NCBI GenBank assembly: GCA_035573935.1
Contig: DATLZP010000115.1
Location: 1 to 30,746 of the forward strand
Length of the DNA: 30,746 nucleotides
DNA from: Actinomycetota bacterium
GTDB taxonomy: Bacteria > Actinomycetota > UBA4738 > HRBIN12
Direction: 5' to 3'
Under the pieces are notes generated by a model. It saw nothing but the letters and a program-made list of their open reading frames with translations, had not been told where the DNA came from and did no database searches. Of this stretch, positions 1 to 15,731 are shown piece by piece. A program made the position numbers and the translations under genes. Within the stretch, counting starts at the first letter, position 1; each line of letters opens with the position of its first letter.

Positions 1-244
1 CCAGCCGGTCGGCCGGATCGCCCCCCAGCGCGCGCCGCACGACCTCGACCCGGCGGGCCTCCGCCGCCTCCACCGCGGCCGCGAGGGCCGCGCGGGCCGC
101 GGCCTCCGAGAAGCCCTCGCTCCGGACGCCGGAGATGAGGACCAGGCGGGCCCGGCACCGCCGCGCCAAACGGACCGCGGCCCCCACCGCGGCCGCGGCC
201 GTGGGCGAGCCGTCGGTCCCCACGACGATCGTCCGATAGGCCAT
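1..244 (-). CDS. Universal stress protein (USP), N-terminal part; runs off the window edge
   Basis: Not in the ORF track. Hand translation from ATG 244: MAYRTIVVGTDGSPTAAAAV...RRALGGDPADRL, with the USP beta1 motif IVVGTDGS and GDPA. The ATG overlaps the upstream TGA (ATGA). Confidence 0.88.
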   Translation of the reverse strand, partial: MAYRTIVVGTDGSPTAAAAVGAAVRLARRCRARLVLISGVRSEGFSEAAARAALAAAVEAAEARRVEVVRRALGGDPADRL

Positions 245-1047
245 CAGCGGACCTCCAGGGTCCCCCTCATCGCCGGGTGGAGGTCGCACCGGAACGCGTA
301 GGTCCCGGCGTCGAGGGGTCCCACGACGTAGCGGGCGGTGCCCGGTCCGTCCACGAAGCCCCCCACGAACACGGCCCGCGAGAAGCCCTGGTCGGCATAG
401 ACCGCGACGTTGTGCGGCACGCCGGGTTCCCGGTTCGCGAACGCGATGACGAACGTTCGGCCGGCCGGCGCCGCCAGGCGATCGGTGGAGAACGACGTGG
501 AGTCGGCCGCCGACAGCTGCAGGCGCGGCGCGTCGGGCGGGACGGGCCGTTCGGACCCCGCCGTTCGCCCGCCGAGCCCGAGGCCGGGCTTGAACATCAT
601 CAGGTACAGGATCGCCACCAGCCCCAGCCCGCCGATCCAGGCCACGGCGAGGCCCGAGCCGGCCCGTCGCACCGCGGCGAACCCCTCGTCGGAGACGGCC
701 TCGGAGCCCTCCATCAGCGCCCGGGCCACGGTCCCCACGCGCACCGTGAACGGCTTCGCCATCGAATACATCGCGATCGACGTGACCACGAGGATCGCGA
801 TCGACGCCCAGATCCACGGCCTCCCCCACCAGCCCCCCAGGGTCGCCGCGACGATCCCGCCGACCAGGAGCACGCCGAGCGAGGCGTAGAAGGGCCCGAC
901 CGACGAGCCCGACAGCTCGACCAGGTCGGCCACCCGCCGGGGGTCCCGCTCGGCGCGGATCCGGAACAGCGCGAACATCGACACGCCGTGCGAGGCGAGG
1001 AAGGCGAAGACGCCGAGGAGGTGCACGAAGACCCACCAGCGGTACAC
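244..1047 (-). CDS. 4-TM membrane protein (DUF2269-like) fused to a C-terminal cupredoxin (type 1 copper) domain
   Basis: Four hydrophobic helices starting WWVFVHLLGVFAFLASHG. C-terminal PHNVAVY...YAFRCDLHPAMRGTLEV supplies His, Cys, His and Met ligands. SD GGAGGTGA lies before the GTG. The family name for the N-terminal part is tentative. Confidence 0.75.
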   Translation of the reverse strand: MYRWWVFVHLLGVFAFLASHGVSMFALFRIRAERDPRRVADLVELSGSSVGPFYASLGVLLVGGIVAATLGGWWGRPWIWASIAILVVTSIAMYSMAKPFTVRVGTVARALMEGSEAVSDEGFAAVRRAGSGLAVAWIGGLGLVAILYLMMFKPGLGLGGRTAGSERPVPPDAPRLQLSAADSTSFSTDRLAAPAGRTFVIAFANREPGVPHNVAVYADQGFSRAVFVGGFVDGPGTARYVVGPLDAGTYAFRCDLHPAMRGTLEVR

Positions 1048-1075
1048 GAACTCACCTCCCCGGGCGCGGTGGCGC

Positions 1076-1084
1076 AGCCTAGCA
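1076..1084 (-). promoter_or_regulatory. Extended -10 (TGC-TAGGCT) for the cupredoxin-fusion/USP pair
   Basis: TGnTAnnnT match about 30 nt upstream of the GTG at 1047. Confidence 0.55.
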
Positions 1085-1092
1085 GAGCCTCG

Positions 1093-1260
1093 TCAGCCCC
1101 GGCGGCCGATCTCGCCCACCCGCTGGGGAGCGGGGGCGCCTGCATCGGACCGGAGCGTCCGGAGCACCCGCCGCTCGATCACGAGGGCGATCGCCCCCAT
1201 CGCCGCCCCGAGCAGGGCGCGCTCCAGGCGCCGGAGGAGCCGCCCCCCGGGCCCGGTCAC
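1093..1260 (-). CDS. Small hypothetical protein, 55 aa, one hydrophobic stretch
   Basis: GTG 1260 overlaps the cyclase stop (GTGA). MTGPGGRLLRRLERALLGAAMGAIALVIERRVLR..., the in-frame tail of track ORF 1093..1551. Confidence 0.55.
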   Translation of the reverse strand: MTGPGGRLLRRLERALLGAAMGAIALVIERRVLRTLRSDAGAPAPQRVGEIGRRG

Positions 1261-2546
1261 GACGGCGCCTCCGCGCCCAGCACGCGGTGGACCTCCACCG
1301 GCTCCTCCCGCCCCCGGACGTGGCGGACCCCGGCCGGCTCGGCCCGGACGGCGGGCGCCGCCCTCACGGTGCTCGCCGCCGCCACGATCTCCCCGCCCTC
1401 CGCCTCGGCCTGCAGCCGGGAGGCCACGTTCACGGCGTCCCCCACCACCGTGTACTCGAGGCGGCCACCGCCCCCGACCGTGCCGGCGATGACGAGGCCG
1501 GTGTTCACCCCGATCCCCACGAGGAGCGGGGGGAGCCCCGGGATCCCCCACCCCTCGGCGTTCAGCTCCTCCTGACGGGCCTGCATGGCGAGGGCGCAGC
1601 GCAGCGCCCGTTCCGCGTGGTCGGGCTGGGGGTCCGGCGCCCCGAACACGGCCATCACCGCATCCCCCTGGAACTTGTCGATCGTCCCCCCGTGGGCCAG
1701 CACGACCTCCGCCATCGCGGAGAGGTGCCGCCCCACGACCGTCGCGACGTCCCGGGCCGGGAGCTGCTCGGCGAGCGTCGAGAACCCGCGGATGTCGGAG
1801 AACAGGACGGTCACCTCGACCTCCTGGGGCGCGATCGCCGTCTCCGGCCGGGCGGCCAAGAGGTCGGCGAGCTGCTGGGGGACGAAGGAGGCCAGGGTCC
1901 GACGCGAGGCGGCCTGCTCGACCACCGCGGCGTGCAGGCGCTTGAACTCGTCGATCAGGCCGCCATCCGCCCGCCCGGCCATCCGCCGGAACAGCTCGGT
2001 GACCCGCCGGTCCACGGCCTCCTGCGTCGTGCCGAGCTCCGCGGCCATCTCCGCGTAGCCCATGCCCCGGGCCATGAGGTCGAGGATCCGGCGGTCCTCC
2101 TCCGCCGCGTCCCGCCGTCCCGACAGGCGCTCGGCGATCGCCGGGTCCACCGCCGACCCCCCCGCCGCCACCTCCCGGATGGCCCGGACCAGCTCGTCCC
2201 CCTGGGCGATGCGGTCCTTCAGCAGGTAAGCGAGGCCGCTCTGGCCCTTCCCCAGGAGCGCGATGGCGTAGTCCTCGTCGTCGTGGGCCGAGAGGACGAC
2301 GACGCCGGTCCCGGGGTGCCGGCCCCGGATCTCGTGCGCGCAGTCGATCCCCTCCAGCCGGAAGTGGGGAGGCATCTTGATGTCGGTGACCACCACGTCC
2401 GGAACGGTGTCCGCGGCCGCGCGGAGCAGCCCGGGCGCGTCCGCCGCCACCCCCACCACCTCGATGTCCGGGAACGATTCGAGCAGGGCCCGCACGCCCT
2501 CCCGGACCAGGACGTTGTCCTCACCCAGCACGACCCGGATCGTCAC
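1257..2546 (-). CDS. Response regulator with REC, LuxR-like HTH remnant and class III adenylate cyclase domain (429 aa)
   Basis: REC: VVLGEDN, TDIKMP, VLSAH, YLLK. HTH-like: RILDLMARGMGYAEMAAELG. Cyclase: VLFSDIRGF, IDKFQGDAVMA, GVNTG, EYTVVGDAVNVASRL. Start set at GTG 2546 from SD GGAGG spacing (track uses 2552). Confidence 0.92.
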   Translation of the reverse strand: MTIRVVLGEDNVLVREGVRALLESFPDIEVVGVAADAPGLLRAAADTVPDVVVTDIKMPPHFRLEGIDCAHEIRGRHPGTGVVVLSAHDDEDYAIALLGKGQSGLAYLLKDRIAQGDELVRAIREVAAGGSAVDPAIAERLSGRRDAAEEDRRILDLMARGMGYAEMAAELGTTQEAVDRRVTELFRRMAGRADGGLIDEFKRLHAAVVEQAASRRTLASFVPQQLADLLAARPETAIAPQEVEVTVLFSDIRGFSTLAEQLPARDVATVVGRHLSAMAEVVLAHGGTIDKFQGDAVMAVFGAPDPQPDHAERALRCALAMQARQEELNAEGWGIPGLPPLLVGIGVNTGLVIAGTVGGGGRLEYTVVGDAVNVASRLQAEAEGGEIVAAASTVRAAPAVRAEPAGVRHVRGREEPVEVHRVLGAEAPS

Positions 2547-2614
2547 GCCCACCCCTCCCCGCCCGGCGCCCGCCCGGGGCCCGGCCGCTCGTCCGACGCG
2601 CCCGGCGCCCCGTG

Positions 2615-2620
2615 TAGCAT
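2615..2620 (+). promoter_or_regulatory. -10 element TAGCAT, probable leaderless promoter of the NarL-type regulator
   Basis: TANNNT 6 nt before GTG 2627, with no SD. Confidence 0.6.
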
Positions 2621-2626
2621 CGCCCC

Positions 2627-3295
2627 GTGGTCCGCGTCGTGTTCGCCGAGGATAACTACCTCGTGCGGGAGGGGACCGCCGCGCTCCTCTCCGCCCGCGA
2701 GGACGTGGATCTCGTGGCCACCGTGGGCGACCTCGACGGCCTGCTGGCCGCGGTCGCCGAGCACGGCCCGGAGGCCGTCCTCACCGACATCCGGATGCCC
2801 CCCACCCACACCACCGAGGGGATCCAGGCCGCGAAGAGGATCCGCGACGAGCACCCGGGCACCGGCGTCGTGGTCCTGTCCCAGTACGCGGAGGAGGAGT
2901 ACGCCTACGAGCTCCTGCGCGACGGCGCGGCCGGCCTCGGCTACCTGCTCAAGGAACGCGTGGCGGACGTGGACGAGGTGGTCCGGGCGCTCCACGAGGT
3001 GGCCCGCGGCGGCTCCGTCCTCGACCCGAAGGTGGTCGAGGCCCTCGTGGCCCGCAAGGACCGCCTGGCGCACTCCCCGCTGGCCCAGCTCACCGACCGG
3101 GAGCGCGAGGTCCTGGCGCACATGGCCGAGGGGAAGAACAACGCCGCGATCGCCAGGGCGATGTTCCTCACCGAGCGGGCCGTCGAGAAGCACATCAACT
3201 CGCTGTTCCACAAGCTCGGCCTGTCGGAGGAGCGTGAGATCCACCGCCGCGTGATGGCCGTCCTCACCTTCCTCCGGGAGGAGCCGGTCGGCTAG
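2627..3295 (+). CDS. NarL/LuxR-family response regulator (REC + HTH)
   Basis: AEDN, TDIRMP, VLSQY, YLLK; HTH LTDREREVLAHMAEGKNNAAIA...VEKHINSLFHKLG. Confidence 0.96.
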   Translation: MVRVVFAEDNYLVREGTAALLSAREDVDLVATVGDLDGLLAAVAEHGPEAVLTDIRMPPTHTTEGIQAAKRIRDEHPGTGVVVLSQYAEEEYAYELLRDGAAGLGYLLKERVADVDEVVRALHEVARGGSVLDPKVVEALVARKDRLAHSPLAQLTDREREVLAHMAEGKNNAAIARAMFLTERAVEKHINSLFHKLGLSEEREIHRRVMAVLTFLREEPVG

Positions 3296-3297
3296 GT

Positions 3298-3900
3298 TCA
3301 CGCCGCTCCCCCGGACCCGCGGCGGCCCGCCCACCCCTGGACCACGGCCAGGGAGAGGAGCGCCGTCGCCACGTACACCGGCGTGCCCACGAGCACCTGC
3401 AGCGCCATCTCCGAGAGCGTGGAGTGGGCCTCGACGTGCCGGGCGGCGACCGCGGGGTCGCGCCCGAAGACGGCCACGGCCAGCCGGGCCAGAGGGGTGC
3501 CCCGACCCACGAGGACGTCGTGGAGGAACGGCCCCGGCCCGGTCACCACGCCGAAGACCACGCCGACCAGGGCCACGTAGACCGCCGACGATGCCCGGCT
3601 CCCCTGGACCCCCACCCGGTGCACCGCGGCAAGGGCTCCGGGGAGGATCAGGAACAGGGCCGGGCTGAGGGCCAGGAAGCCCAGCGTGGAGTCGAACAGC
3701 CAGTGCCAGACGTCGGCGATCGGCGGGCCGGCCTCGCCCCGTTGGATCGCGTGGAGCCAGAACATCACCCCGCCGCCCGCGTACGCGAGCGAGGCGGAGG
3801 TCACGAGCAACGCGACCCACGCCAGCGGGCGCGCGTAGAAGGCGCGGATGCCCTGCCGGGCTCCCCGCCCGGCCCTGGAGATCGTCTCGACGGCGCTCAT
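3298..3900 (-). CDS. Hypothetical multi-pass membrane protein (200 aa)
   Basis: Strong SD AAAGGAGG before ATG 3900; about 4 hydrophobic segments; the 3' part of track ORF 3298..6489; convergent with the regulator. Confidence 0.8.
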   Translation of the reverse strand: MSAVETISRAGRGARQGIRAFYARPLAWVALLVTSASLAYAGGGVMFWLHAIQRGEAGPPIADVWHWLFDSTLGFLALSPALFLILPGALAAVHRVGVQGSRASSAVYVALVGVVFGVVTGPGPFLHDVLVGRGTPLARLAVAVFGRDPAVAARHVEAHSTLSEMALQVLVGTPVYVATALLSLAVVQGWAGRRGSGGAA

Positions 3901-3945
3901 GGTTCCTCCTTTCGATGCGAGGGACCCCGATCCGCCCCCCTCGAT

Positions 3946-3992: not shown

Positions 3993-4403
3993 CTACTGCG
4001 CGCGGCGGGTGTCCACGATGAACACCGAGCACGGCGCGTGCTGCACGACGGCGTTCGGTACGCTGCCCAGGAACCACCGGCGCCTCCCGTGGGTCCCGCG
4101 GTTGCCGACGACGATCACGTCCACCCCCTCCTCGTCGGCCACCTGGCAGATCGTCTCGGCGGGATCGCCCGCCTCGGCCCGGGTCCGGACCTTCACGGCG
4201 GGGAACCGCGACGGCATCCGGGCCAGGTAGGCCTCCGGGTCCGGGACCTTCCCGGGGTCGAACACCTCCCGGGCATCGAGGGGCGGCCGGACGTAGAGCA
4301 CGAGCAGCTCCGCCTCCCTGGCTCCGGCCAGCGCGGCGGCGGTCTCCACCGCCAGGTCGGCCGCGGCCGAGGTGTCGGTCCCCACCAGCAGCTTCTGGAT
4401 CAT
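3993..4403 (-). CDS. Universal stress protein, single domain, ATP-binding type
   Basis: LLVGTDTS, GDPAETI, VIVVGNRG-x9-GS (G-2X-G-9X-GS), VVQHAPCSVFIV; SD GAGGAGG. Confidence 0.95.
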   Translation of the reverse strand: MIQKLLVGTDTSAAADLAVETAAALAGAREAELLVLYVRPPLDAREVFDPGKVPDPEAYLARMPSRFPAVKVRTRAEAGDPAETICQVADEEGVDVIVVGNRGTHGRRRWFLGSVPNAVVQHAPCSVFIVDTRRAQ

Positions 4404-4430
4404 CGCCCACCTCCTCGCGGTGCCGGCCCG

Positions 4431-4477
4431 ACCGTACGCCCCGTACCCGGACCGGCCCTAGCCGGGTGGCACCACTC
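4431..4477 (-). promoter_or_regulatory. USP promoter: -10 TACGGT plus upstream motif GAGTGGTGCCA
   Basis: TANNNT at 4436-4431. The 11-mer at 4467-4477 is identical to 15721-15731. Confidence 0.5.
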
Positions 4478-4608
4478 GTGAGAGGCTTGAGCGCCACCCC
4501 GGGCGGAAGGTTGCCGACGCGGCCCGGGGGAGGCAGCACGCGGCAGGGATGAGGGACTCCCCCCACGATGGTTCGGACCACACCCTTCCCGGGGCCGGAC
4601 CCGGAGGG

Positions 4609-4614
4609 CAGCAT
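4609..4614 (+). promoter_or_regulatory. -10-like CAGCAT, probable leaderless promoter of the kinase operon
   Basis: 6 nt before ATG 4621; same context (AGCATCGCSCC-RTG) as 2616-2629. Confidence 0.4.
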
Positions 4615-4620
4615 CGCGCC

Positions 4621-6723
4621 ATGACCGCACGGACGGCCTCTCGCCTGGCCTGGGCCGCGGTGGCCCTGTTCGCGGCGCTCGTCGCCAGCGGGCTCGCCCT
4701 CCTCGCCCGGAACGGACGGGGAGGCCTGGGCGGGAACCTCGCCATGGTCGTCGTCTTCGGATCGATCGTCGGGGTGGGGGCCCTCGTCGTCTCCCACCAG
4801 CCGGGGAACCCCATCGGATGGCTGTTCCTCTTCATCGGGACCGGCGCCGCGCTGAGCTTCGCCTCCGGGGAGTACGAGTTCCTGGCCTACGTGGCGGACC
4901 CCGCTCCGCCCCCGGGCCGGGCGATCGCCGCCTGGGTCTCCGGCTGGGCCTGGGTCGTGTCGATCGGCCCGATCATGACCTACGTTCCCCTCCTCTTCCC
5001 CGACGGCCGGCTGCCATCGCCCCGCTGGCGGCCGGTGGCGTGGGCGGCCGGTGCGCTGCTCCTCGTGTCCGCCCTCCTGTTCGCCGTGGCCGAGCGCCTG
5101 GAGATCACCGACGGGGTCCGGGTCCCCAACCCCTTCGGCCTGGTGGACCTCCCGGTGGCCTCCATCGACCAGGCGACCTTCCTCGCCTTCGTCGCGGTGG
5201 CCCTCCCCTCGGTCGCCGCCCTGATCGTGCGGTTCCGGAGGTCGACCGGCGAGGAGCGGCTCCGCCTCAAGTGGTTCACGTTCGGGATCGGGGTCCTGGC
5301 CGGGTTCTTCCTGTTCAGCGCGGCGGTCCAACTGCTCGGCCTGGGGGATGAGGTGCTCGGGGGGGACCTCATCGCGGCGGCCGCGTTCATGGCCGTCCCC
5401 GTGGGGGCGGGGATCGGGATCCTCCGCTACCAGCTCTTCGACATCGACCTCGTGATCCGGAAGACGGTCGTGTTCGGCCTCCTGGCCGCCTTCATCACGA
5501 TCGTCTACGGGGTCGTCGTGCTGGGGATCCCGGCCCTGGTGCTCGGCGTCCGGCCCACCGGGATGGGCGCGCTCCCCCTCGTGGCGGCGGTCGTGCTCGC
5601 GATCGCGTTCCAGCCCGTCCGCCGGCGGGCGCAGCACTGGGCGAACCGCCTCGTCTACGGGGAGCGGGCCACGCCCTACGAGGTCCTCTCGGAGTTCGCC
5701 CAGCGCATGAGCGGGACGTTCGCGGCGGAGGAGCTCCTGCCGCGGACGGCCCGGATCCTGAACGAGGGCACGGGGGCCGAGCGGACCGACGTGTGGCTGC
5801 GGGTGGGGGACGAGCTCCGGCCGGCCGCATCCTGGCCCTCCGGTGGACCCGAGCCCGGGCCGCTGCGGGTGGGGGCCGACGGCGAGCTGCCCCCGATCCC
5901 GGGCGCGGACGCCGCGTACCCCGTGCGACACCAGGACGAGCTGCTGGGCGCGGTCTCGATCCGCAAGCCTCGCGACGAGCCGATCACGGACACCGAGGAC
6001 CGGCTGCTGGCCCACGTCGCGGCCCAGGCCGGCCTCGTGCTGCGGAACGCTCGGCTCACCGAGGAGCTCCGGAGGACGATCGACGAGCTCCGGGCCTCCC
6101 GCCAGCGCCTGGTGACGGCCCAGGACGAGGAACGTCGGCGGCTGGAGCGGAACATCCACGACGGGGCCCAGCAGCAGCTCGTGGCCCTCACCGTGCAGCT
6201 CCGGCTCCTCGAGGAGCGGATCGGGCGGGACCCGGAGGGGGCGAGGGAGGCCGCGTCGCAGCTCCGGGGGGCGGCCGCCGAGGCCCTCGAGGACCTCCGG
6301 GACCTGGCCCGGGGGATCTACCCCCCGCTCCTCGCCGACAAGGGGCTCCCGGCGGCGATCGAGGCCCAGGCCCGCAGGTCGAACACCCCCATCGACGTTG
6401 AGGCGGACGGCGTGGCACGCCACCCGCCCCAGACGGAGGCCGCCGTCTACTTCTGCTGCCTCGAGGCGATCCAGAACGCGACGAAGCACGCGGGCGCGGC
6501 CCGCATCGTCGTCCGGATCTCGGAGGGGGATGGCGAGCTTCGCTTCGAGGTCGAGGACGACGGTCGGGGGTTCGAGCCGGCCGCGATCCCCCGAGGGACC
6601 GGGCTGCAGAACATGTCCGACCGGCTGGAGGCGCTGGGGGGCACCCTCGAGATCCGATCCGTCCCGGGCCGCGGCACGACGATCCGGGGACGGCTGCCCA
6701 CGGACGGGGGGCGGGCGGGATGA
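4621..6723 (+). CDS. Membrane sensor histidine kinase HK1 (multi-TM, GAF-like, HisKA_3, HATPase_c), 700 aa
   Basis: H-box ERRRLERNIHDGAQQQL (His codon 6157-6159), N-box EAIQNATKHA, DDGRGF, GTGLQNM. Start placed at ATG 4621. Confidence 0.93.
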   Translation: MTARTASRLAWAAVALFAALVASGLALLARNGRGGLGGNLAMVVVFGSIVGVGALVVSHQPGNPIGWLFLFIGTGAALSFASGEYEFLAYVADPAPPPGRAIAAWVSGWAWVVSIGPIMTYVPLLFPDGRLPSPRWRPVAWAAGALLLVSALLFAVAERLEITDGVRVPNPFGLVDLPVASIDQATFLAFVAVALPSVAALIVRFRRSTGEERLRLKWFTFGIGVLAGFFLFSAAVQLLGLGDEVLGGDLIAAAAFMAVPVGAGIGILRYQLFDIDLVIRKTVVFGLLAAFITIVYGVVVLGIPALVLGVRPTGMGALPLVAAVVLAIAFQPVRRRAQHWANRLVYGERATPYEVLSEFAQRMSGTFAAEELLPRTARILNEGTGAERTDVWLRVGDELRPAASWPSGGPEPGPLRVGADGELPPIPGADAAYPVRHQDELLGAVSIRKPRDEPITDTEDRLLAHVAAQAGLVLRNARLTEELRRTIDELRASRQRLVTAQDEERRRLERNIHDGAQQQLVALTVQLRLLEERIGRDPEGAREAASQLRGAAAEALEDLRDLARGIYPPLLADKGLPAAIEAQARRSNTPIDVEADGVARHPPQTEAAVYFCCLEAIQNATKHAGAARIVVRISEGDGELRFEVEDDGRGFEPAAIPRGTGLQNMSDRLEALGGTLEIRSVPGRGTTIRGRLPTDGGRAG

Positions 6724-8792: not shown

Positions 8793-10900
8793 CTCCACGC
8801 ACCGCCTCCCGCCTCGCGTGGTCGCTGTCCGGGGTATCCGCGACGGCGATGCTGCTCTCGTTGCTCGTCAGCCAGCTCCGCCAGGGTGGCAGCACCGGCT
8901 TCGGCACCATCGGCGTCGGCGCCGCACTCACGTTCCCCCTCGTCGGTGGGCTCGTGGGGTCCCGCCGCCCAGAGAACGCCATCGGATGGCTCCTCGGCGT
9001 GACCGGCTTTTCTCTCGGGATGGCGGCGTTCTCGCAGCAGTACTCCCACTACGCACTGATCGATCGGAGCGGTCTTCCGCTCGGCGACCTCGCGGCATGG
9101 GTGGGAACCTGGATCTGGCCCACCGGCATCGTGATCCTCTTCGTCTTCGCGCTCCTGCTCTTCCCCACTGGTCACCTTCCCTCGCGAAGGTGGCGCCCCG
9201 TGGCCTGGTTGGGCGGGCTGAGCACCGCTCTGGGGACGATCCCCGTGGCCATCACAGCGTGGCCCATCCGAGGCCCGATCCTGCTGGAGATCGGGGATGA
9301 TGCACCCGGCGCAGCGACCGCCGGTTTCAAGCTCGCCTTCGATCTCCAGGTCGCGGCCATCCTGCTGATGTTCGCGCTGGGGCTGGTCTCGGCGGTGTCG
9401 GTCGTGCTGCGGTTCAGGAGGTCGGCGGGAGAGGAGCGCCAGCAACTGAAGTGGTTCGCCCTCGGTGGTTCGCTCCTGGTCGTCGGTTTCATCCTCAATA
9501 GCCCACTGTTCCACCTCGGCGGCGACGTGCTCCCGGTCCTCCTCATCCCCCTCCTGCCTGCTGCCATCGGGATCGCCATCCTGAAGTACCGCCTCTACGA
9601 CATCGACGTCGTCATCAGCAAGGCGGTCCTCTTCGGCGCGCTCGCGGCCTTCATCACGGTCGTCTACGTGGGGGTCGTGGTCGGCGTGGGGTCGGTGCTC
9701 GGTAGGACCGAGCCCGACCTCACCCTCCAGGTGGCGGCGACGGCGCTCGTCGCGCTCGCGTTCCAGCCGGTGCGGGAGGGAGCCCGGCGGCTGGCGAACC
9801 GCCTGGTGTACGGGGAGCGGGCCGAGCCCTACGAGGTCCTCGCTCGATTCGCCTCCCGGGCCGCGGGGACGTACGCGACCGAGGACGTGCTCCCGCGCAC
9901 GGCGCGGGTGATCGGGGAGGGGACCGGCGCCGCCCGAGCCGAGGTGTGGCTCCGGGTGGGGGAGGAGCTCCGGCTCGGCGCGGCCTGGCCGGAGGACGGG
10001 GGCGGGCGCCCCCGGGCGCTCCCCATGGCCGACGGCCGGCTCCCGGAGGTCCCCGGCGCCACCGAGCTGGTGCCGGTCGCGCAGCGCGGGGAGCTCCTGG
10101 GCGCGGTGGCCGCCACGAAGCCACCGGGGGAGCCGCTCACGCCCGCCGAGGCGTCGCTCCTCGACGACCTGGCGAAGCAGGCCGGCCTGGTGCTCCGCAA
10201 CGCCCGGCTCACCGAGGAGCTCCGGGCCCGCCTGGAGCAGATCGCTGCCCGGGCGGAGGAGCTCCGGGCGTCCCGCCAGCGGATCGTGGCGGCGCACGAC
10301 GCGGAGCGGCGACGCCTTGAGCGGAACATCCACGACGGCGCGCAGCAGCACCTCGTGGCCCTCGCCGTCAAGCTCCGCCTGGCCCGGGAGCTCCTGGCTC
10401 GCGATCCGGGCCGGGCGGCCGCGCTCCTGGGGGAGCTCCGCGCCGAGATCGACCAGGCGCTCGAGACCCTCCGGGACCTGGCGGGTGGGATCTACCCGGC
10501 GGTCCTCGAGGAACGGGGCATCGCCGCGGCCCTGGAGGACCAGGCCGGACTGGCGGACGTCCCCGTGGAGATCGAGGGGGACGGCCTGGCCCGGTGGCCG
10601 ATCGAGACCGAGGCCGCGGTGTACTTCTCCTGCCTGGAGGCCCTGCAGAACGCGCTCAAGCACGCCGGGGCCCGCCGGGTCCGCATCCGGCTGACCGAGG
10701 CGGCGGGACACCTCCGCTTCTCCGTCGCCGACGACGGCAGGGGATTCGATCCCGCCACGGTCCCCGTGGGGGCCGGCCTCCGCAACATGGCGGACCGGGT
10801 GGAAGCGTTGGGGGGCCACCTCGAGGTCCGATCGGTCCCCGGCCTGGGGACGACGGTCGAGGGCGCCGTCCCCGTGGAGATCCCGGGGTCGGCCCGATGA
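8789..10900 (+). CDS. Membrane sensor histidine kinase HK3, 703 aa
   Basis: GTGA overlap with HK2; true start inside track ORF 6398..10900 (MTPRTASRLAW); ERNIHDGAQQHL, EALQNALKHA, DDGRGF, GAGLRNM. Confidence 0.93.
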   Translation: MTPRTASRLAWSLSGVSATAMLLSLLVSQLRQGGSTGFGTIGVGAALTFPLVGGLVGSRRPENAIGWLLGVTGFSLGMAAFSQQYSHYALIDRSGLPLGDLAAWVGTWIWPTGIVILFVFALLLFPTGHLPSRRWRPVAWLGGLSTALGTIPVAITAWPIRGPILLEIGDDAPGAATAGFKLAFDLQVAAILLMFALGLVSAVSVVLRFRRSAGEERQQLKWFALGGSLLVVGFILNSPLFHLGGDVLPVLLIPLLPAAIGIAILKYRLYDIDVVISKAVLFGALAAFITVVYVGVVVGVGSVLGRTEPDLTLQVAATALVALAFQPVREGARRLANRLVYGERAEPYEVLARFASRAAGTYATEDVLPRTARVIGEGTGAARAEVWLRVGEELRLGAAWPEDGGGRPRALPMADGRLPEVPGATELVPVAQRGELLGAVAATKPPGEPLTPAEASLLDDLAKQAGLVLRNARLTEELRARLEQIAARAEELRASRQRIVAAHDAERRRLERNIHDGAQQHLVALAVKLRLARELLARDPGRAAALLGELRAEIDQALETLRDLAGGIYPAVLEERGIAAALEDQAGLADVPVEIEGDGLARWPIETEAAVYFSCLEALQNALKHAGARRVRIRLTEAAGHLRFSVADDGRGFDPATVPVGAGLRNMADRVEALGGHLEVRSVPGLGTTVEGAVPVEIPGSAR

Positions 10901-12987
10901 GGTTCCGCGCGACCTCCGCCGTCGCGTGGGGCGCGTGGGCGGCCTTCGCCCTCGGCCTGGGCTGGACCCTCGCCGTCCGGGGACCGGCGCTCTCCGGGGA
11001 CCTGCTCCAGGACATCCCGCTGATCGTGGCCTTCTCCGCCTTCCCCACCGTCGGCGCCGTGGTGGCCTCGCGACGCCCCCGGAACCCGATCGGCTGGCTG
11101 TTCCTCGGGATCGGGGTCCTGGCCGCCGCGGGCGCCGCCAGCGAGACCTACGCCGACATGGCGCTTCCCCGTCCCGGGTCCCCTCCGATGCTCGCCGTCC
11201 TGGCCGCCTGGATCCAGGCCTGGTACTGGTACCCGCTCCTGGCCATGGCGACCGTGTTCCCGCTGCTCCTGTTCCCGGCGGGGCTGCCGTCCCGGCGCTG
11301 GCGACCGGTCCTGTGGCTGGCGGTGATCTCCGTCCTGGCGACCACGGCCGCCGCCGCGCTCCAGCCGACGCTGTCGGGGGGCGGGAGGACGATCCCGAAC
11401 CCGTTCGGCGTCCGGTGGACCGGCGCGCCGGACGTCGAGGAGACCGCGTTCTTCCAGGCGTTCTCGCTCGTGTTCGGGGGCACCCTGATGGCGGCCGCTG
11501 CCTCCCTCGTCGTGCGGTTCCGGCGGTCCCGGGGGGATGAGCGGCTCCAGCTCAAGTGGTTCGTCTTCGCGGCCGGCGTCCTCGCCGCGTCGATCATCCT
11601 GGCCACGGCCGTCCCCGCCTTCGACCGCTCCGCGGCCGGCGGGCTGATGACGGGGTTCGCGCTGGCGCTCATCCCCATCGCGTGCGGGATCGCGATCCTC
11701 AGGCACCGCCTCTACGACATCGACCTCGTCCTCAACCGGGCGGTGGTCTTCGGGGCGTTGGCCGCGTTCATCGGCGCCGTCTACGTGGCGATCGTGGTGG
11801 GGCTGGGATCCCTGGCCGGTCGGGTGGGCGAGCCGAGCGTGCCGCTCCAGATCGCGGCCACGGCGGTCGTCGCGGTGGCGTTCCAGCCGGTCCGGGAGCG
11901 GGTCCAGCGGCTCGCCAACCGGCTCGTGTACGGCGAGCGGGCCACCCCCTACGAGGTCATGGCCGGCTTCGCCCACCGCATGGCCGACACGCTGTCCGTG
12001 GACGAGACGCTGCCGGCCATGGCGGAGGTGGCGGCCCGAGGTGTCGGCGCCAGGTGGGGGCGGGTGGGCATCCGGCTCCGCGACGGCGGCGAGCGGGCGG
12101 CGAGCTGGCCCCCGGGAGCGCCGGAGCCTCCGGCCCCCATCGCCATCCCGGTCACGCACCGGGGTGAGCCGGTCGGGGAGATCGCCGTCGCCAAGGCGCC
12201 CGGCGACCCCCTCACGCCGGCCGAGCGGCGGCTGCTGGAGGACCTGGCCTCCCAGGCCGGCCTGGCCCTGCGGAACGCGGGGCTCGCCGCCGAGCTCGAG
12301 GCCCGGCTCGGGGAGCTCACGGCGCAGGCGGAGGACCTGCGCCGGTCCCGGGAGCGGCTGGTGACGGCCCGGGACGAGGAACGCCGGCGCCTGGAGCGGG
12401 AGATCCGGGAGGGCCCGGAGCGGCGCCTGCTCGCGATGCGCGCCGACGTGGACCGCGCGGCCCGCCTGGCGACGACCGACCCCGGGGCGGCCGGCGCCGT
12501 CCTCGACGACCTGGGGGCGCTCGCGAACACCACGCTCGAGGAGCTCCGGGACCTGGCCCGGGGGATCTACCCCCCGCTCCTCGCCGAGGAGGGCCTGCTG
12601 GCGGCGCTCCGGGCGCACGTCCGCAAGGCGGGGATCGCGGCCGAGATCTCCGCGGACGGCGGGTCGGCCGCCGCGCGCCTGGCCCCGGAGGTGGAGGCCG
12701 GGATCTACTTCTGCCTGGTCCACGCGCTCCGCAACGTGCAGCGGCACGCGGCCGGCGCCGCGGTCTCCGTGCGCATCTCGCGGGACGGCGACGGCGTCGG
12801 GTTCGAGGTCGTGGACCGGGGCCCGGGGTTCGATCCGGCCGCCACCCGGACCGGGCAGGGGCTCCAGGTGATGCGGGACCGGGTCGAGGCCCTGGGTGGC
12901 CGGCTCGACGTGTCGAGCGCGCCGGGCCGGGGCACCGTGGTCCGGGGCCGGATCCCGCTCGCCCTCGGAGCCGGGGCGGCCCCGTGA
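10897..12987 (+). CDS. Kinase-like sensor HK4 lacking the phosphoacceptor His (pseudokinase), 696 aa
   Basis: ATGA overlap with HK3. H-box reads EREIREGPERRL (His replaced by Arg, codon 12406-12408); N-box HALRNVQRHA; DRGPGF and GQGL retained. Confidence 0.88.
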   Translation: MRFRATSAVAWGAWAAFALGLGWTLAVRGPALSGDLLQDIPLIVAFSAFPTVGAVVASRRPRNPIGWLFLGIGVLAAAGAASETYADMALPRPGSPPMLAVLAAWIQAWYWYPLLAMATVFPLLLFPAGLPSRRWRPVLWLAVISVLATTAAAALQPTLSGGGRTIPNPFGVRWTGAPDVEETAFFQAFSLVFGGTLMAAAASLVVRFRRSRGDERLQLKWFVFAAGVLAASIILATAVPAFDRSAAGGLMTGFALALIPIACGIAILRHRLYDIDLVLNRAVVFGALAAFIGAVYVAIVVGLGSLAGRVGEPSVPLQIAATAVVAVAFQPVRERVQRLANRLVYGERATPYEVMAGFAHRMADTLSVDETLPAMAEVAARGVGARWGRVGIRLRDGGERAASWPPGAPEPPAPIAIPVTHRGEPVGEIAVAKAPGDPLTPAERRLLEDLASQAGLALRNAGLAAELEARLGELTAQAEDLRRSRERLVTARDEERRRLEREIREGPERRLLAMRADVDRAARLATTDPGAAGAVLDDLGALANTTLEELRDLARGIYPPLLAEEGLLAALRAHVRKAGIAAEISADGGSAAARLAPEVEAGIYFCLVHALRNVQRHAAGAAVSVRISRDGDGVGFEVVDRGPGFDPAATRTGQGLQVMRDRVEALGGRLDVSSAPGRGTVVRGRIPLALGAGAAP

Positions 12988-15192
12988 GCCGCGGCGCTCG
13001 CGCGGAGCCCCCGGAGCCACTCCCCGTCCCGACCGGGGGCGGCCCGGGAGGAGGACACGAGGCGAGCGAGCGGGGACGGAGGCGCCTCCCCTGGGTCGTG
13101 TGGGCGGTCGGCTTCCTCGTGATCTTCCCGGGAGCGATGGTCCTCGGGATCCGCAACGGCAGCCTCTCGCAGGACCCGATGCTCATCATGCTTTCCATCG
13201 GATTGGTGACCGGCTACGCCGCCGTCGGCGCGCTGGTGGCATCGAGGAGCTCGGTCCCGGTGATCGGCTGGCTCATGCTCGTCATCGGCGTGGGGTTCCT
13301 CCTCAGCGCGGCGGCCGCCGAGTACGTGATCTACGCGTACCGGACCGACCCGGGCGCTCTGCCCCTCCGGTCCGCGGTGGCCTGGCTGTGGAGCTGGATC
13401 GACGTGCCCGCGATCATCTCGGTGCTCTACCTCTTGCTCCTCTTCCCCACCGGGCGGGTGCCATCCCACAGGTGGCGGTCCCTCCCCCCCGTGATCGGCC
13501 TGTTCAGCCTCATGGCCGTGGCCGGCCAGGTCGTCCGATCGGCCCCGATCGAGCCGACCGATGGCGTCCGCGTCCCCAACCCGACCGCCGTGCCGGAGCT
13601 CGACGCGGCGGCCGACGCCATGCTCACGGCCGCCGCGTTCGTCCTGGTCCCCGCGGCGATCGCCTGCGCCATGGCCCCGGTGCTCCGGTTCCAACGCTCG
13701 ACGGGGGTGGAGCGTCAGCAGATCCGCTGGCTGGCCTTCGCGGTCGCGCTGGGCGGCGTCGCGCTGGTCGTGGTGCTGGTGAGCGGGATCGGCCTCGGTC
13801 CGAAAGAGACGGTCGTGAACGACGTGGCGTTCTTCGCGTTCTTCGCCTGCGTCGGCATCGGGATCCCCATCGCGGCCGGGGTGGCCGTCCTTCGGTACCG
13901 CCTCTACGCCCTGGACCTCGTGGTCCGGAAGACCCTGGTGTTCGGCTTGCTCGTCGTGTCGGCGTCGATCGCCTACGGCGCGGTCGTCGTCTCGATCGGG
14001 TTCCTGGTGGGGGAGCGCAACACCCCGCTCTCGATGTTCGCGCTCGGGATCGCGCTCGGAACCGCGTTCCCGCTCTTCCGGCGGCAGGCCACCCGGCTGG
14101 CCGACCGGATCGTGTACGGGCGGCGAGCCACGCCGTACGAGGTGCTCTCCGGCTTCGCGGAGCGGGTGGCGAGGACGTACGCGAGCGAGGACGTGCTCCC
14201 CCGGATGGCCCAGATCCTCGCCCAGGGGACCGGGGCCGAGGTGGCCCGGGTGTGGCTCCTGATGGGGCGGGAGCTCCGGGCCGAGGCGACGTGGCCGCCG
14301 GATGGGGGGCCCGCCGGTCCCGCCCGGGTCGCCGGCGACGCCCTCCCGGAGCTCCCCGGCGGCGAGCGGGCCTTCGAGGTGCGGCACCAGGGGGAGCTGC
14401 TCGGGGCGCTCAGCCTGCGGATGCCCCAGAGCGACTCCCTCGACCCGGCCCGGGAGAGGCTCGTGGCCGACCTCGCGTCCCAGGGCCGGGCTGGTCCTCC
14501 GGAACGTCCGGCTGATCCAGGAGCTCAGGGGGTCCCGACGTCGACTGGTCGCCGCCCAGGACGAGGAGCGCCGGCGGATCGAACGCAACCTCCACGACGG
14601 CGCGCAGCAGCAGCTGGTGGCGCTCTCCGTGCGGCTCCGCCTAGCGGAGCAGCTCGTCGAGCGGGATGCGGCCAAGGCCAAGGAGGCGATCGGGCGGATC
14701 CAGGCCGAGGCCACCGAGGCGCTCGAGAACCTCCGGGATCTGGCCCGGGGGATCTACCCGCCGCTCCTCGCCGACCGGGGGCTCCCCGCCGCCCTCGAGG
14801 CCCAGGCCCGGAAGGCGTCCCTCCCGGTGCGGGTGGAGGCCTCCGGGGTCGACCGCTACCCACGGGAGGTGGAATCCGCGGTCTACTTCTGCGTCCTCGA
14901 GGCCCTCCAGAACGCGGCGAAGTACGCCCGGGCCGAGCACGTGATGGTCCGGCTCTCCGCCGCGCACGACGAGCTGCGGTTCGAGGTCTCCGACGACGGT
15001 GCGGGGTTCGACCCGGGGTCCGCGCATGGCGGCACGGGGCTCCGGGGGATGGCCGACCGGGTGGAGGCCGTGGGCGGCTCCCTCCAGGTCCGCTCGGCCC
15101 CAGGGTCGGGGACCTCGGTCGTCGGACGGGTGCCGGTCGGCACGGGAGGGACGCGGGAGGACGGGCTCCATCCCGGTGGGACCACCGGCTAG
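12984..15192 (+). pseudogene. Sensor histidine kinase HK5 split by a +1 G insertion (about 735 aa if repaired): recent pseudogene or sequencing error
   Basis: GTGA overlap with HK4. The sensor/GAF half is in the frame of 12984. CAG-G-GCC at 14481-14487 shifts the rest (AGLVLRN...ERNLHDGAQQQL...EALQNAAKYA...DDGAGF) into the frame of ORF 14302..15192. Confidence 0.85.
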
Positions 15193-15201
15193 CCCCAGCG
15201 G

Positions 15202-15283
15202 CGTCTCCCGCGGCGGGGTCGGAAACCGGGCCGGCCCCCGCGGTGACCTCACGCCTGCGGCGGTGCCCTGGGGCGGGGAGACG
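15202..15283. terminator. GC-rich nested inverted repeats between convergent genes, possible bidirectional terminator
   Basis: CGTCTCCC (15202-15209) pairs with GGGAGACG (15276-15283), with inner stems; no U-tract. Confidence 0.3.
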
Positions 15284-15288
15284 TCGGA

Positions 15289-15666
15289 TCAGTCCGCGCC
15301 GGCCGTCGCGGCCGACCAGGCCTGCTCCAGCCGGTCGGGGGCGAACACCGCCTTCGGGATGTAGGCGGCGGCGCCGCACTCGGCGGCCCGGGGCGCGTAC
15401 TCCTCCTCCTCGTAGGTGGAGAGCAGGAGGACGACCACGGAGTCCCCCTCGGCCAGGATGCGCCGGGTGGCCTCCAGCCCATCGATCCCCGGGAGGTTCA
15501 CGTCCATCAGGACCAGGTCGGGCCGGAGCTCCCGGGCCTTCTCCACGGAGTCCTCGCCGGTCTCGGCCTCCCCCGCGACCTCGAAGCCCTCCGTGGCCTC
15601 CACCACCATCCGGGCGGCCAGGCGGAACGGCGCCTGGTCGTCCACGATCAGCACCCGGACGCTCAC
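15289..15666 (-). CDS. Single-domain response regulator (REC only), 125 aa
   Basis: MSVRVLIVDDQ, LVLMDVNLPGIDG, LLSTY, YIPK; SD GGAGGTGA before GTG 15666; no output domain. Confidence 0.93.
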   Translation of the reverse strand: MSVRVLIVDDQAPFRLAARMVVEATEGFEVAGEAETGEDSVEKARELRPDLVLMDVNLPGIDGLEATRRILAEGDSVVVLLLSTYEEEEYAPRAAECGAAAYIPKAVFAPDRLEQAWSAATAGAD

Positions 15667-15685
15667 GAGCGTCACCTCCACGCCA

Positions 15686-15731
15686 AGGTTCCCACCGGCC
15701 GGGCGTCCCGGCAGTGATGCTGGCACCACTC
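15686..15731 (-). promoter_or_regulatory. Promoter of the single-domain REC: GAACCT -10-like element plus an 8-2-8 inverted repeat
   Basis: AGTGATGC-TG-GCACCACT at 15713-15730 (7/8 symmetric), centred about 30 nt upstream of GAACCT (15691-15686). Confidence 0.5.

What the first reader, a model, noticed from the sequence alone, without database searches (positions are those of the whole stretch)
1..15731. Multi-input signalling island: five coupled sensor kinases feeding three receivers, one of them an adenylate cyclase
Seen: five paralogous TM-GAF-HisKA_3-HATPase genes in one run, each start overlapping the previous stop by 4 nt (6720/6723, 8789/8792, 10897/10900, 12984/12987). No regulator lies inside the run. 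It is flanked by a NarL-type regulator, a REC-HTH-cyclase, a stand-alone REC and two USPs. Established: most two-component loci pair one kinase with one regulator, and HisKA_3 kinases phosphorylate NarL-type receivers. Inference: this is a many-to-few network in which diversified membrane sensors share a phosphotransfer interface and drive both transcription and cAMP synthesis. I know of no characterised locus with this composition, but I cannot search.
Basis: partly seen in the sequence, partly recalled or inferred. Interest (0 to 1): 0.85.

Follow-up and report, generated by a model that had tools for sequence, protein, structure and literature searches.

The report
Conserved multi-kinase island with cAMP output
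An uncultured soil actinobacterium carries a row of five related membrane sensor kinases (three intact, one a conserved dead-kinase type, one frameshifted) beside three receiver proteins, one of which makes cAMP. The same gene set recurs in at least 90 related genomes, so it looks like a real, unstudied many-sensors-to-few-outputs signalling system.

Summary
Five paralogous 10-TM–GAF–HisKA_3–HATPase genes lie head to tail with ATGA/GTGA overlaps. They are flanked by a REC–HTH–class IIIb adenylate cyclase, a NarL-type regulator, a single-domain receiver and two USPs.

- **K4** lacks the phospho-His, the DxxxQ motif and the N-box Glu. It belongs to a conserved pseudokinase clade.
- **K5** carries a +1 frameshift at 14483-14485. 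Two metagenomes show it; a strain about 3% diverged does not.

The interpretation gains strong comparative support. In 80 related soil MAG loci the cyclase/regulator pair, the USP and the lone receiver are conserved at 72-91% identity. They are flanked by 1 to 6 or more kinases that are only 40-53% identical to the window's. The window's five kinases are old paralogues, not recent copies. The phosphotransfer helices are nearly invariant across 190 kinases, while the membrane sensors vary. The same four-part set recurs, reshuffled, in other Actinomycetota families.

Phosphotransfer itself is untested. This scan has seen the same family on other genomes, and I found no description of it in the papers searched. 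Verdict: a new variant of a known kind (a multikinase network).

The parts
1..244 (-). Second universal stress protein gene. Only the N-terminal ~81 codons are present because the contig ends here. Its ATG overlaps the stop codon of the cupredoxin gene.
   Evidence: Translation of the - strand gives MAYRTIVVGTDGS..., a typical USP start. Relatives carry CUP-USP-USP downstream of the cyclase side.
244..1047 (-). Membrane protein made of DUF2269 and a cupredoxin domain, downstream of the cyclase gene. Probably part of the output regulon or operon.
   Evidence: Pfam PF10027 and PF13473. The same gene lies on the cyclase side in L038, L069, L070, L072, L073 and other loci.
1257..2552 (-). Response regulator with an adenylate cyclase output: REC (5-125), NarL-like HTH (about 151-195), linker, then a class IIIb cyclase domain (245-420).
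   Evidence: Pfam Response_reg and Guanylate_cyc. Residues 7-192 align to NarL, DevR and VraR, and the cyclase domain aligns to Cya2, CyaB and CyaC. Catalytic residues D254, D297, K293, T368, N375 and R379 are all present, as is the phospho-Asp motif TDIKMP. Orthologues are 67-91% identical across the order.
2553..2626 (.). Divergent 74-bp intergenic region. TAGCAT at 2615-2620, then 6 nt, then the regulator's GTG. This looks like a conserved -10 box for a leaderless regulator mRNA.
   Evidence: 71 orthologous intergenic regions all keep TA(C/G)CAT followed by 6 nt and the start codon. The promoter reading is an inference.
2627..3295 (+). NarL/FixJ-type response regulator (REC plus GerE HTH). 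It is the unfused sibling of the cyclase protein.
   Evidence: Pfam Response_reg and GerE. It is 45-47% identical to residues 4-192 of the cyclase protein. It lies divergently next to the cyclase gene in 77 of 80 loci.
3298..3903 (-). 201-aa polytopic membrane protein with no family match. It is a genus-level insertion between the regulator and the USP, not part of the conserved core.
   Evidence: No Pfam or NCBIfam hit. Among the 80 loci it was found only in the same-genus locus L038.
3993..4403 (-). Universal stress protein with a nucleotide-binding motif, divergent from the kinase array.
   Evidence: Pfam Usp, E 1.6e-32. G-x2-G-x9-G-S motif GNRGTHGRRRWFLGS. Present at this position in 72 loci.
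4404..4548 (.). Divergent USP/K1 intergenic region, presumably holding the promoter of the kinase array. It includes a palindrome at 4465-4476 that matches a conserved GGGTGC-TG-GCACCC element upstream of the USP in relatives.
   Evidence: Alignment of orthologous regions. The palindrome is not enriched in the window (4 matches against 1.5 expected). Its function is unknown.
4549..6723 (+). K1: intact 10-TM–GAF–HisKA_3–HATPase sensor kinase.
   Evidence: Pfam. AlphaFold2 model with pLDDT 87 and 10 TM helices. H537 and the DxxxQ motif are present. An 81-82% identical orthologue exists in the same-genus locus L038.
6720..8792 (+). K2: intact sensor kinase. Its DHp-coding segment is homogenised with that of K1.
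   Evidence: Pfam. ATGA overlap with K1. Nucleotide identity to K1 is 90-97% over K1 residues 510-592 and 46-83% elsewhere.
8789..10900 (+). K3: intact sensor kinase from a separate old paralogue clade.
   Evidence: Pfam. GTGA overlap. Tree placement.
10897..12987 (+). K4: full-length pseudokinase. His is replaced by Arg, DxxxQ is lost and the N-box Glu is replaced by His. The sensor, GAF, G1 and G2 parts are kept.
   Evidence: Alignment. K4 sits in a 12-member clade (support 99) in which 9 members lack the His and none keeps the N-box Glu where that region is present.
12984..15192 (+). K5: sensor kinase of the type that normally lies next to the lone receiver. In this strain a +1 frameshift (an extra G at 14483-14485) breaks it between the GAF and DHp domains.
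   Evidence: Translations and sequence. Read through the break, it has HisKA_3 and HATPase_c. Contigs from runs X1 and X2 keep the extra G, while a contig from run X4 lacks one base there. Most of its tree clade abuts the lone REC.
15289..15729 (-). Single-domain response regulator (REC only), convergent with K5 and downstream of holB.
   Evidence: Pfam Response_reg, E 8e-25. The acidic pair, the phospho-Asp motif (MDVNLP), S/T and K are all present. Orthologues are 73-87% identical and abut a kinase end in 30 of 34 loci. Outside the order it clusters with the regulator and the cyclase.

Best explanation
This is one copy of a lineage-wide multikinase two-component system found in uncultured soil Actinomycetota.

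The proposed mechanism:
- **Inputs.** Several old paralogues of one kinase family have diversified 10-helix membrane sensor domains and a cytoplasmic GAF domain. They keep an almost frozen HisKA_3 phosphotransfer helix pair.
- **Outputs.** All kinases can therefore phosphorylate, and through the DxxxQ motif dephosphorylate, the same small set of receivers. These are a NarL-type transcription factor; its sibling, in which REC and HTH are fused to a class IIIb adenylate cyclase, so phosphorylation-driven dimerisation would switch on cAMP synthesis; and a single-domain receiver that most likely acts as a phosphate sink or modulator.
- **Pseudokinase.** A conserved pseudokinase paralogue (the K4 type) probably modulates the others by heterodimerising or by competing for receivers.
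- **This strain.** K1-K3 are canonical, K4 is the pseudokinase, K5 is inactivated by a frameshift, and the kinases usually found downstream of the cyclase gene are missing.

Shown here: gene content, residues, conservation, co-occurrence and shared interface signatures. Inferred: phosphotransfer to all three receivers, activation of the cyclase, the roles of K4 and the lone REC, and co-transcription of the array.
For: **Anatomy**
- Domains and the 4-nt overlaps.
- All three receivers keep the full set of phosphorylation residues.
- The cyclase has all six class III catalytic residues with a Lys/Thr substrate pair.

**Co-occurrence**
- In 80 loci from other species the order is tmk-holB-REC-[K]n-USP-RR<>CYC-[K]m. 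The regulator is adjacent in 77 loci and the USP in 72. The REC abuts a kinase in 30 of 34 loci. Complete loci hold 1-6 kinases.
- Full-length cyclase orthologues are present in about 28 of 41 relatives across 8 families.
- In 9 of 10 loci sampled from other families of the phylum, the cyclase again clusters with at least one of kinase, REC or regulator, and with all three in 5, but in a shuffled order.

**Shared interface**
- Across 190 kinases the DHp helices have 0.5-0.6 bits of entropy, against 2.5-3.0 for the sensor domain. The consensus is the same on the regulator side and the cyclase side.
- K1 and K2 share a gene-conversion tract exactly over the DHp segment.
- In the window's own genome only the array kinases carry ERNIHDGAQQQLVAL, and only the regulator and the cyclase carry EDNxLVREG...TDIxMPP.

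**Age of the array**
- K1-K5 fall in five different old clades. K5's clade is the REC-adjacent one, and K4's clade is a conserved pseudokinase lineage.
Against: - No phosphotransfer, expression or cAMP data exist. The organisms are uncultured and no RNA data were examined.
- The lone REC has a different helix-1 signature (DDQxPFRxAAR) from the other two receivers, so it may be served differently.
- The window lacks the cyclase-side kinase clades that accompany the cyclase in most relatives. Its cyclase may therefore be under-served here.
- Two of the five array members are not working kinases in this strain.
- The sensed signals are unknown. The sensor fold has no solved relative.
Confidence: 0.65

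Rival explanations
1. The array kinases serve only the NarL-type regulator. In this genome the cyclase fusion has lost its dedicated downstream kinases and is effectively orphaned, or is driven by small phospho-donors. The lone REC belongs functionally to the holB-tmk-topA unit rather than to the island.
For: - Cyclase-side kinases form their own clades, and the window has none of them.
- The REC lies co-directionally downstream of holB.
- The cyclase and regulator receivers differ at a few helix-1 positions.
Against: - The DHp consensus of cyclase-side and regulator-side kinases is the same at nearly every position.
- The REC domains of the cyclase and the regulator share a private signature.
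- Outside the order the REC travels with the regulator, cyclase and kinase genes, not with holB.
Confidence: 0.15
2. In this strain the array is a decaying set of redundant paralogues (K4 dead, K5 frameshifted) rather than an integrated multi-input device.
For: - K4 lacks the His and the catalytic Glu.
- The K5 frameshift appears in contigs from two independent runs.
- Copy number varies from 1 to 6 or more between genomes.
Against: - K4-type pseudokinases are full-length and are retained as a clade in at least 9 other genomes, and also outside the order.
- K5 is intact in a strain about 3% diverged, and its orthologues are widespread.
- The paralogues are old and hold conserved positions in the array.
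Confidence: 0.1
3. Each kinase is insulated and pairs one-to-one with a distinct partner encoded elsewhere. On this view the clustering with these receivers is coincidental.
For: One-to-one pairing is the general rule for two-component systems (established knowledge).
Against: - The H-box helix is nearly identical in K1, K2, K3 and K5 and differs from that of all 13 or more other HisKA_3 kinases in the genome.
- The gene set co-occurs in about 90 loci across families despite rearrangement.
Confidence: 0.05

Closest known systems
Multikinase networks, for example KinA-E to Spo0F in Bacillus subtilis, LuxN/LuxQ/CqsS to LuxU in Vibrio, and GacS/RetS/LadS in Pseudomonas (my own knowledge; GacS/RetS is described as a multikinase network in PMC8498467)
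   Same: Several sensor kinases converge on a few receivers. One catalytically atypical kinase may modulate the others, as RetS does by disturbing GacS dimerisation.
   Different: - Here the kinases are paralogues of one family, encoded side by side with overlapping genes.
- They are HisKA_3 type with no Hpt relay.
- The outputs fork into a transcription factor, a cAMP synthase and a lone receiver.
- Nothing has been tested experimentally.
DosS/DosT-DosR of Mycobacterium tuberculosis and NarX/NarQ-NarL/NarP of E. coli (my own knowledge; DevR, NarL and DosS/DosT appear among the hits)
   Same: Two or more HisKA_3 kinases, with GAF domains in the Dos system, feed NarL-type regulators. USP genes are associated, as they are in the DosR regulon.
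   Different: - The kinases here are polytopic membrane proteins with one GAF domain, not soluble tandem-GAF heme sensors.
- There are up to six or more paralogues.
- One of the regulators carries a cyclase.
- No NCBIfam equivalog model passes its cut-off.
HrrSA/ChrSA heme systems of Corynebacterium and the ChrS pseudokinase variant (PMC9491836, abstract only)
   Same: They are actinobacterial paralogous kinases that cross-talk to their regulators. A pseudokinase version has a physiological effect. The regulator ChrA is among the structural hits.
   Different: - Those are two separate kinase-regulator pairs, not a tandem array with shared receivers.
- The pseudokinase there is a laboratory or strain variant, whereas here it is a conserved clade.
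Receiver-regulated class III cyclases, for example cyanobacterial CyaC, and the class IIIb cyclases CyaB of P. aeruginosa and Cya2 (PDB 1wc0, 3r5g, 2w01)
   Same: A class IIIb catalytic domain with a Lys/Thr substrate pair, and regulation through an N-terminal receiver.
   Different: - Here a complete NarL-like REC plus HTH precedes the cyclase.
- The protein has an unfused sibling encoded head to head.
- The kinases are separate proteins.
Polytopic-membrane quorum-sensing kinases ComP and LuxN, and the HisKA_7TM (PF16927) sensor module
   Same: The overall architecture is similar: a multi-helix membrane sensor with short loops, followed by a transmitter. ComP and LuxN are the second to fourth Swiss-Prot structural hits. 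HisKA_7TM proteins match the sensor model at TM 0.53-0.56.
   Different: - There is no sequence-level membership: Pfam finds nothing in residues 1-360.
- The sensor has ten helices, not seven to nine.
- The ligand is unknown.

Membership tests
HisKA_3 (NarX/DesK-type) sensor histidine kinases | HisKA_3 dimerisation domain with a phospho-accepting His in the H-box | tested here: met
   K1, K2, K3 and K5 have PF07730 hits and the motif ERN(I/L)HDG. K4 matches the domain but has Arg at the His position, so K4 itself does not meet this feature.
HisKA_3 (NarX/DesK-type) sensor histidine kinases | HATPase_c domain with the N-box Glu and Asn and the G1 and G2 boxes | tested here: met
   K1-K3 and K5 have LEAxQN, DDGxGF and GxGLxxxxxRxxxxGG. 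K4 keeps N, G1 and G2 but has His in place of the Glu.
HisKA_3 (NarX/DesK-type) sensor histidine kinases | DxxxQ phosphatase motif directly after the His | tested here: met
   HDGAQQ is present in K1, K2, K3 and K5 and is nearly invariant across the 190 kinases. It is lost in the whole K4 clade.
HisKA_3 (NarX/DesK-type) sensor histidine kinases | Uninterrupted reading frame | tested here: not met
   This applies to K5 only: a +1 frameshift at 14483-14485. K1-K4 are uninterrupted.
NarL/FixJ response regulators | REC domain with an acidic pair, a phospho-Asp, S/T and K, plus a C-terminal GerE/LuxR HTH | tested here: met
   The regulator at 2627-3295 has PF00072 and PF00196 and all phosphorylation residues. 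The cyclase protein aligns to NarL through residue 192, but GerE was not among its Pfam hits at E ≤ 0.01.
Class III adenylate cyclases, subclass IIIb | Two metal-binding Asp, a substrate-specifying Lys plus Thr (Asp in IIIa), and transition-state Asn and Arg | tested here: met
   D254, D297, K293, T368, N375 and R379, read from alignments to Cya2, CyaB and CyaC. The assignment of roles rests on my knowledge of the family.
Class III adenylate cyclases, subclass IIIb | Dimeric enzyme that makes cAMP | not testable with these tools
   This needs an enzyme assay.
Multikinase network (several kinases feeding shared receivers) | Kinases share the receiver-contacting residues, and these differ from other systems in the same cell | tested here: met
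Multikinase network (several kinases feeding shared receivers) | Kinases and receivers co-occur across genomes | tested here: met
   80 loci in the order and 9 of 10 loci from other families.
Multikinase network (several kinases feeding shared receivers) | Demonstrated phosphotransfer from several kinases to one receiver | not testable with these tools
   This needs in vitro phosphotransfer profiling.
DosS/DosT-DosR type hypoxia/redox system | Soluble kinases with tandem GAF domains, the first of which binds heme | tested here: not met
   The kinases have 10 TM helices and a single GAF domain. Heme ligands were not examined.
HisKA_7TM (PF16927) membrane sensor module | Match to the Pfam model | tested here: not met
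   Pfam finds nothing in residues 1-360. There is only a structural resemblance at TM 0.53-0.56 and a weak Atlas lead at 0.82.
Nucleotide-binding USP (UspFG type) | USP fold with a G-x2-G-x9-G(S/T) motif | tested here: met
   PF00582 at E 1.6e-32. Motif GNRGTHGRRRWFLGS. The ligand (ATP or cAMP) was not tested.

The most novel reading that the evidence does not exclude
The island is a combinatorial sensory array. Because all paralogues keep the same DHp dimerisation and phosphotransfer helices, which gene conversion helps maintain, they may form heterodimers with each other and with the conserved pseudokinase. A handful of genes would then give many sensor combinations. Their summed kinase/phosphatase balance would be split three ways: into transcription, into cAMP, and into a receiver sink that sets the threshold. 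Copy-number turnover of the sensors would tune each soil lineage to its niche while the receiver core stays frozen.
Probability: 0.2. Interest if true: 0.8.

Novelty: new variant of a known kind. Interest (0 to 1): 0.55.

Why it matters
Most two-component systems are one kinase paired with one regulator. The few well-studied many-to-one networks were found piecemeal and are scattered around their genomes. Here the whole network sits in one compact locus. It has conserved receivers, a variable number of sensor paralogues and a built-in pseudokinase, and it occurs in about ninety natural variants.

That makes several questions testable with purified proteins and comparative data:
- How interface residues freeze when partners are shared.
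- How pseudokinases are kept.
- How one phosphorylation signal is split between gene regulation and a second messenger.

It also points to cAMP as a major stress or dormancy signal in an abundant, uncultured group of soil Actinomycetota.

Tried and rejected
- **Sensor fold.** The AlphaFold2 model of the sensor alone is confident (pLDDT 87.7, pTM 0.81). It has no significant PDB match: best E 0.03, TM below 0.45, generic GPCR-like bundles. I draw no ligand inference from it.
- **Named families.** No NCBIfam equivalog passes its cut-off for any island protein. The Atlas gives only 'hypothetical protein' clusters for the sensor.
- **Shared operator.** The palindrome conserved upstream of the USP (GGTGSTGSCACC) has 4 matches in the window against 1.5 expected, and 5 of 100 shuffles reach 4. 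That is not evidence for a shared operator at both ends of the array.
- **Promoter and terminator scans.** The consensus scans found nothing in this 75% GC sequence, so they say nothing about operon structure.
- **CYC<>RR intergenic motif.** I first considered the conserved motif here as an operator. It fits a -10 box for a leaderless regulator mRNA better.
- **DosR-like reading.** Rejected as a membership claim, because the architecture differs.
- **Literature.** Searches found no paper on this locus or on a REC-HTH-cyclase. The held text of the 2004 actinobacterial cyclase survey mentions no receiver, but that text is short.
- **Complex prediction.** I did not run one. A pass against unrelated control proteins would not separate cognate from non-cognate receivers.
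- **K5 break.** I considered that it might be an assembly error. I rejected this because independently assembled contigs from two runs in different studies keep the extra base.

Full report
**What is in the window.**
The window is a whole 30.7-kb contig of a soil metagenome-assembled genome (2.3 Mb in 419 contigs, 81% complete, 75% GC). GC3 frame analysis and Pfam give this map of the island:

| Coordinates | Strand | Gene |
|---|---|---|
| 1-244 | - | partial USP |
| 244-1047 | - | DUF2269-cupredoxin membrane protein |
| 1257-2552 | - | REC-HTH-cyclase |
| 2627-3295 | + | REC-GerE regulator |
| 3298-3903 | - | membrane protein with no family |
| 3993-4403 | - | USP |
| 4549-15192 | + | five kinase genes |
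| 15289-15729 | - | lone REC |

The conserved holB, MFS-tmk and topA genes follow. The four kinase junctions are ATGA, GTGA, ATGA and GTGA overlaps. The homologous N-termini of the proteins begin exactly at those starts.

**Two corrections to 'five kinases'.**
- **K5 is frameshifted.** Its frame changes between the GAF domain and the DHp domain. The sequence tcc cag ggc cgg has one G too many compared with the expected S-Q-A-G-L-V-L-R-N. The kinase domains appear only when the gene is read as 12984-14483~14485-15189.
- **The frameshift is real but strain-specific.** Independently assembled contigs of two public runs from different studies keep the extra G (X1, no differences over 13607-14517, depth about 21; X2, depth 3.7). 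A contig from a third study (X4), about 3% diverged, lacks one base at 14483 and so has an open frame. I read this as a real, strain-level lesion rather than an assembly error.
- **K4 is a pseudokinase.** It is full length but has IREG instead of IHDG. It has lost the DxxxQ phosphatase motif and has His in place of the N-box Glu.

Only K1-K3 are canonical.

**The receivers.**
- All three receivers keep the acidic pair, the phospho-Asp, the S/T and the Lys.
- The cyclase protein aligns to NarL, DevR and VraR through residue 192. It is 45-47% identical to the neighbouring regulator over REC plus HTH. It is therefore a NarL-type regulator with a cyclase attached.
- Its catalytic domain is closest to Cya2, CyaB and CyaC. 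It has both metal Asp (D254, D297), Lys293 with Thr368 at the substrate positions, and Asn375 and Arg379. This is the class IIIb adenylate-specific pattern; assigning the roles rests on my knowledge of the family.
- Across 73 orthologues its REC is the most conserved part (0.31 bits), followed by the cyclase (0.66 bits). The HTH is still constrained (0.86 bits).
- Its recognition helix is a conservative variant of the sibling's: AVDRRVTELFRRM against AVEKHINSLFHKL. Earlier notes of this scan called the HTH a relic. I can only say that it is conserved and that DNA binding is undecided.

**Comparative evidence.**
- **The kinase family is expanded.** With K1 as query, 36 of 41 related genomes hold full-length family members, up to 17 matches per genome and often in tandem rows.
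- **The cyclase is conserved.** Its protein has a full-length orthologue of 67-91% identity in about 28 of the 41 relatives, spread over eight families, usually as a single copy. It sits head to head with the regulator in all of them.
- **The 80 loci.** I fetched 80 loci from other species. All are uncultured, mostly soil, 'Actinomycetota bacterium' MAGs, one labelled Solirubrobacterales. I mapped the window's proteins onto them.
- **The gene order is conserved.** It reads tmk, holB, REC, a leftward row of kinases, USP, regulator, cyclase, a rightward row of kinases, and often cupredoxin and USP genes.
- **Counts.** The regulator is adjacent in 77 of 80 loci and the USP in 72. The REC abuts a kinase end in 30 of 34. 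Complete loci hold 1 to 6 kinases. Larger arrays are cut off by the 10-kb flanks.
- **Identity to the window.** It is 72-91% for the cyclase, 74-92% for the regulator and 73-87% for the REC, but only 40-53% for the kinases, apart from the same-genus K1 orthologue in L038 at 81%.
- **This window's variant.** It has five kinases on the regulator side and none on the cyclase side. The same-genus locus L038 shares that arrangement.

**Age and structure of the array.**
A tree of 190 full-length kinases puts K1-K5 in five different old clades.
- Cyclase-side kinases form clades of their own, which the window lacks.
- K5 belongs to a clade whose members mostly lie next to the lone REC, as K5 does.
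- K4 belongs to a 12-member clade (support 99). Nine members lack the His. All have lost DxxxQ, and wherever the N-box region is present its Glu is replaced (Gln in ten, His in K4), yet all remain full length.
- His-less copies also occur outside the order.

The array is therefore an old, position-conserved set of paralogues that includes a maintained pseudokinase. It is not a recent amplification.

**Shared phosphotransfer interface.**
- Across the 190 kinases the first DHp helix (residues 533-553 of K1) and the start of the second (579-600) are almost invariant, at 0.5-0.6 bits. The consensus is the same on both sides of the locus.
- The membrane sensor runs at 2.5-3.0 bits, apart from three conserved cytoplasmic-loop motifs.
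- K1 and K2 are 90-97% identical in DNA exactly over the DHp segment and 46-83% elsewhere. That is a gene-conversion tract.
- In the window's own genome, 13 or more other HisKA_3 kinases have a quite different H-box helix. Other NarL-type receivers lack the EDNxLVREG...TDIxMPP signature shared by the regulator and the cyclase.
- The same three signatures persist in other families of the phylum. In 9 of the 10 loci sampled there, the cyclase again sits with at least one of kinase, REC or regulator, and with all three in 5, but in a different order.

Retention of the neighbourhood through rearrangement, together with a private and frozen interface, is what a shared-partner network predicts. The lone REC has its own conserved signature, so its relation to the kinases is the least certain link.

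**The sensor.**
- AlphaFold2 with a 79-sequence alignment gives a confident model (pLDDT 87). It shows ten transmembrane helices, one short beta-hairpin outer loop (181-193), a GAF domain, a long signalling helix and a DHp-CA transmitter.
- The sensor alone has no significant solved relative.
- Among AlphaFold clusters it matches other HisKA_3 kinases, stand-alone membrane proteins and HisKA_7TM proteins at TM 0.5-0.66.
- The whole model's nearest reviewed proteins include ComP and LuxN.

The signal is unknown. Short loops suggest a membrane-borne or small-molecule cue.

**Mechanism proposed.**
Several sensors with a common transmitter set the phosphorylation level of three receivers:
- the regulator, which controls transcription and probably comes from a leaderless mRNA with a conserved TA(C/G)CAT box 6 nt before the start codon;
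- the regulator-cyclase fusion, in which phosphorylation-driven dimerisation would assemble the obligate cyclase dimer and make cAMP;
- the lone REC, acting as a sink or modulator.

The K4-type pseudokinase probably acts through heterodimers or competition. The nucleotide-motif USPs and the cupredoxin protein are likely targets or effectors. All of this is inference from anatomy and conservation. No step has been measured.

**Comparison with known systems and novelty.**
- Multikinase networks, cross-talking HisKA_3 pairs (NarXQ/NarLP, DosST/DosR, HrrSA/ChrSA), histidine pseudokinases and receiver-regulated class IIIb cyclases are all known.
- What I have not found described is the combination: a compact, lineage-wide locus of tandem paralogous sensors with a frozen interface, a conserved pseudokinase, and outputs split between a transcription factor, its cyclase-bearing sibling and a lone receiver.
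- Other agents of this scan met the same family on other genomes and reached similar verdicts.
- I therefore rate it a new variant of a known kind, of moderate to good interest.

**Caveat on sources.**
The tallies include three unpublished genomes (G023, G029, G153). No conclusion here depends on them alone. The 80-locus analysis uses public records only.

Noticed in passing
window 16984-19014 (-): One 676-aa reading frame joins an MFS transporter domain (residues 26-392) to a thymidylate kinase (472-657). Relatives match it at 63-69% identity over 98-99% of its length, so the fusion seems conserved in the lineage.
   Followed up: partly
window 2608-2629; L021-L099 CYC<>RR intergenic regions: The regulator gene appears to be leaderless. 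A conserved TA(C/G)CAT hexamer lies exactly 6 nt before its start codon in 71 loci, and the whole divergent intergenic region is only 26-74 bp long.
   Followed up: partly
window 4465-4476; USP upstream regions of L021-L073: A conserved palindrome GGGTGC-TG-GCACCC lies about 65 nt upstream of a TACGGT -10-like box before the USP gene. The window has a variant (GGTGG-CA-CCACT on the + strand) in which both arms changed so that they still pair. The binding protein is unknown.
   Followed up: partly
L105:11442-11738 (-) and L100:14389-14676 (+): Kinase paralogues without the phospho-His (IREG and LNDG) also occur in genomes of other families. In L105 the His-less copy lies next to the lone REC.
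   Followed up: no
window 6088-6372 versus 8154-8438: K1 and K2 share a gene-conversion tract over the DHp-coding segment: 90-97% nucleotide identity against 46-83% elsewhere.
   Followed up: yes
window 23610-25964 (-): A 784-aa amino-acid-permease-type protein (AA_permease_2) with a long C-terminal extension sits next to two TrkA-N/TrkA-C genes (26052-26711 and 26722-27438). A sibling note reads it as a KimA-like K+ transporter with a duplicated regulatory domain.
   Followed up: no
L022, L026, L042, L044, L045, L048, L068 and other MFD loci: Kinase genes in many Microflora Danica MAGs appear in several frame-shifted pieces. This probably reflects assembly indel errors rather than biology (not checked), so kinase counts from those records are approximate.
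   Followed up: no
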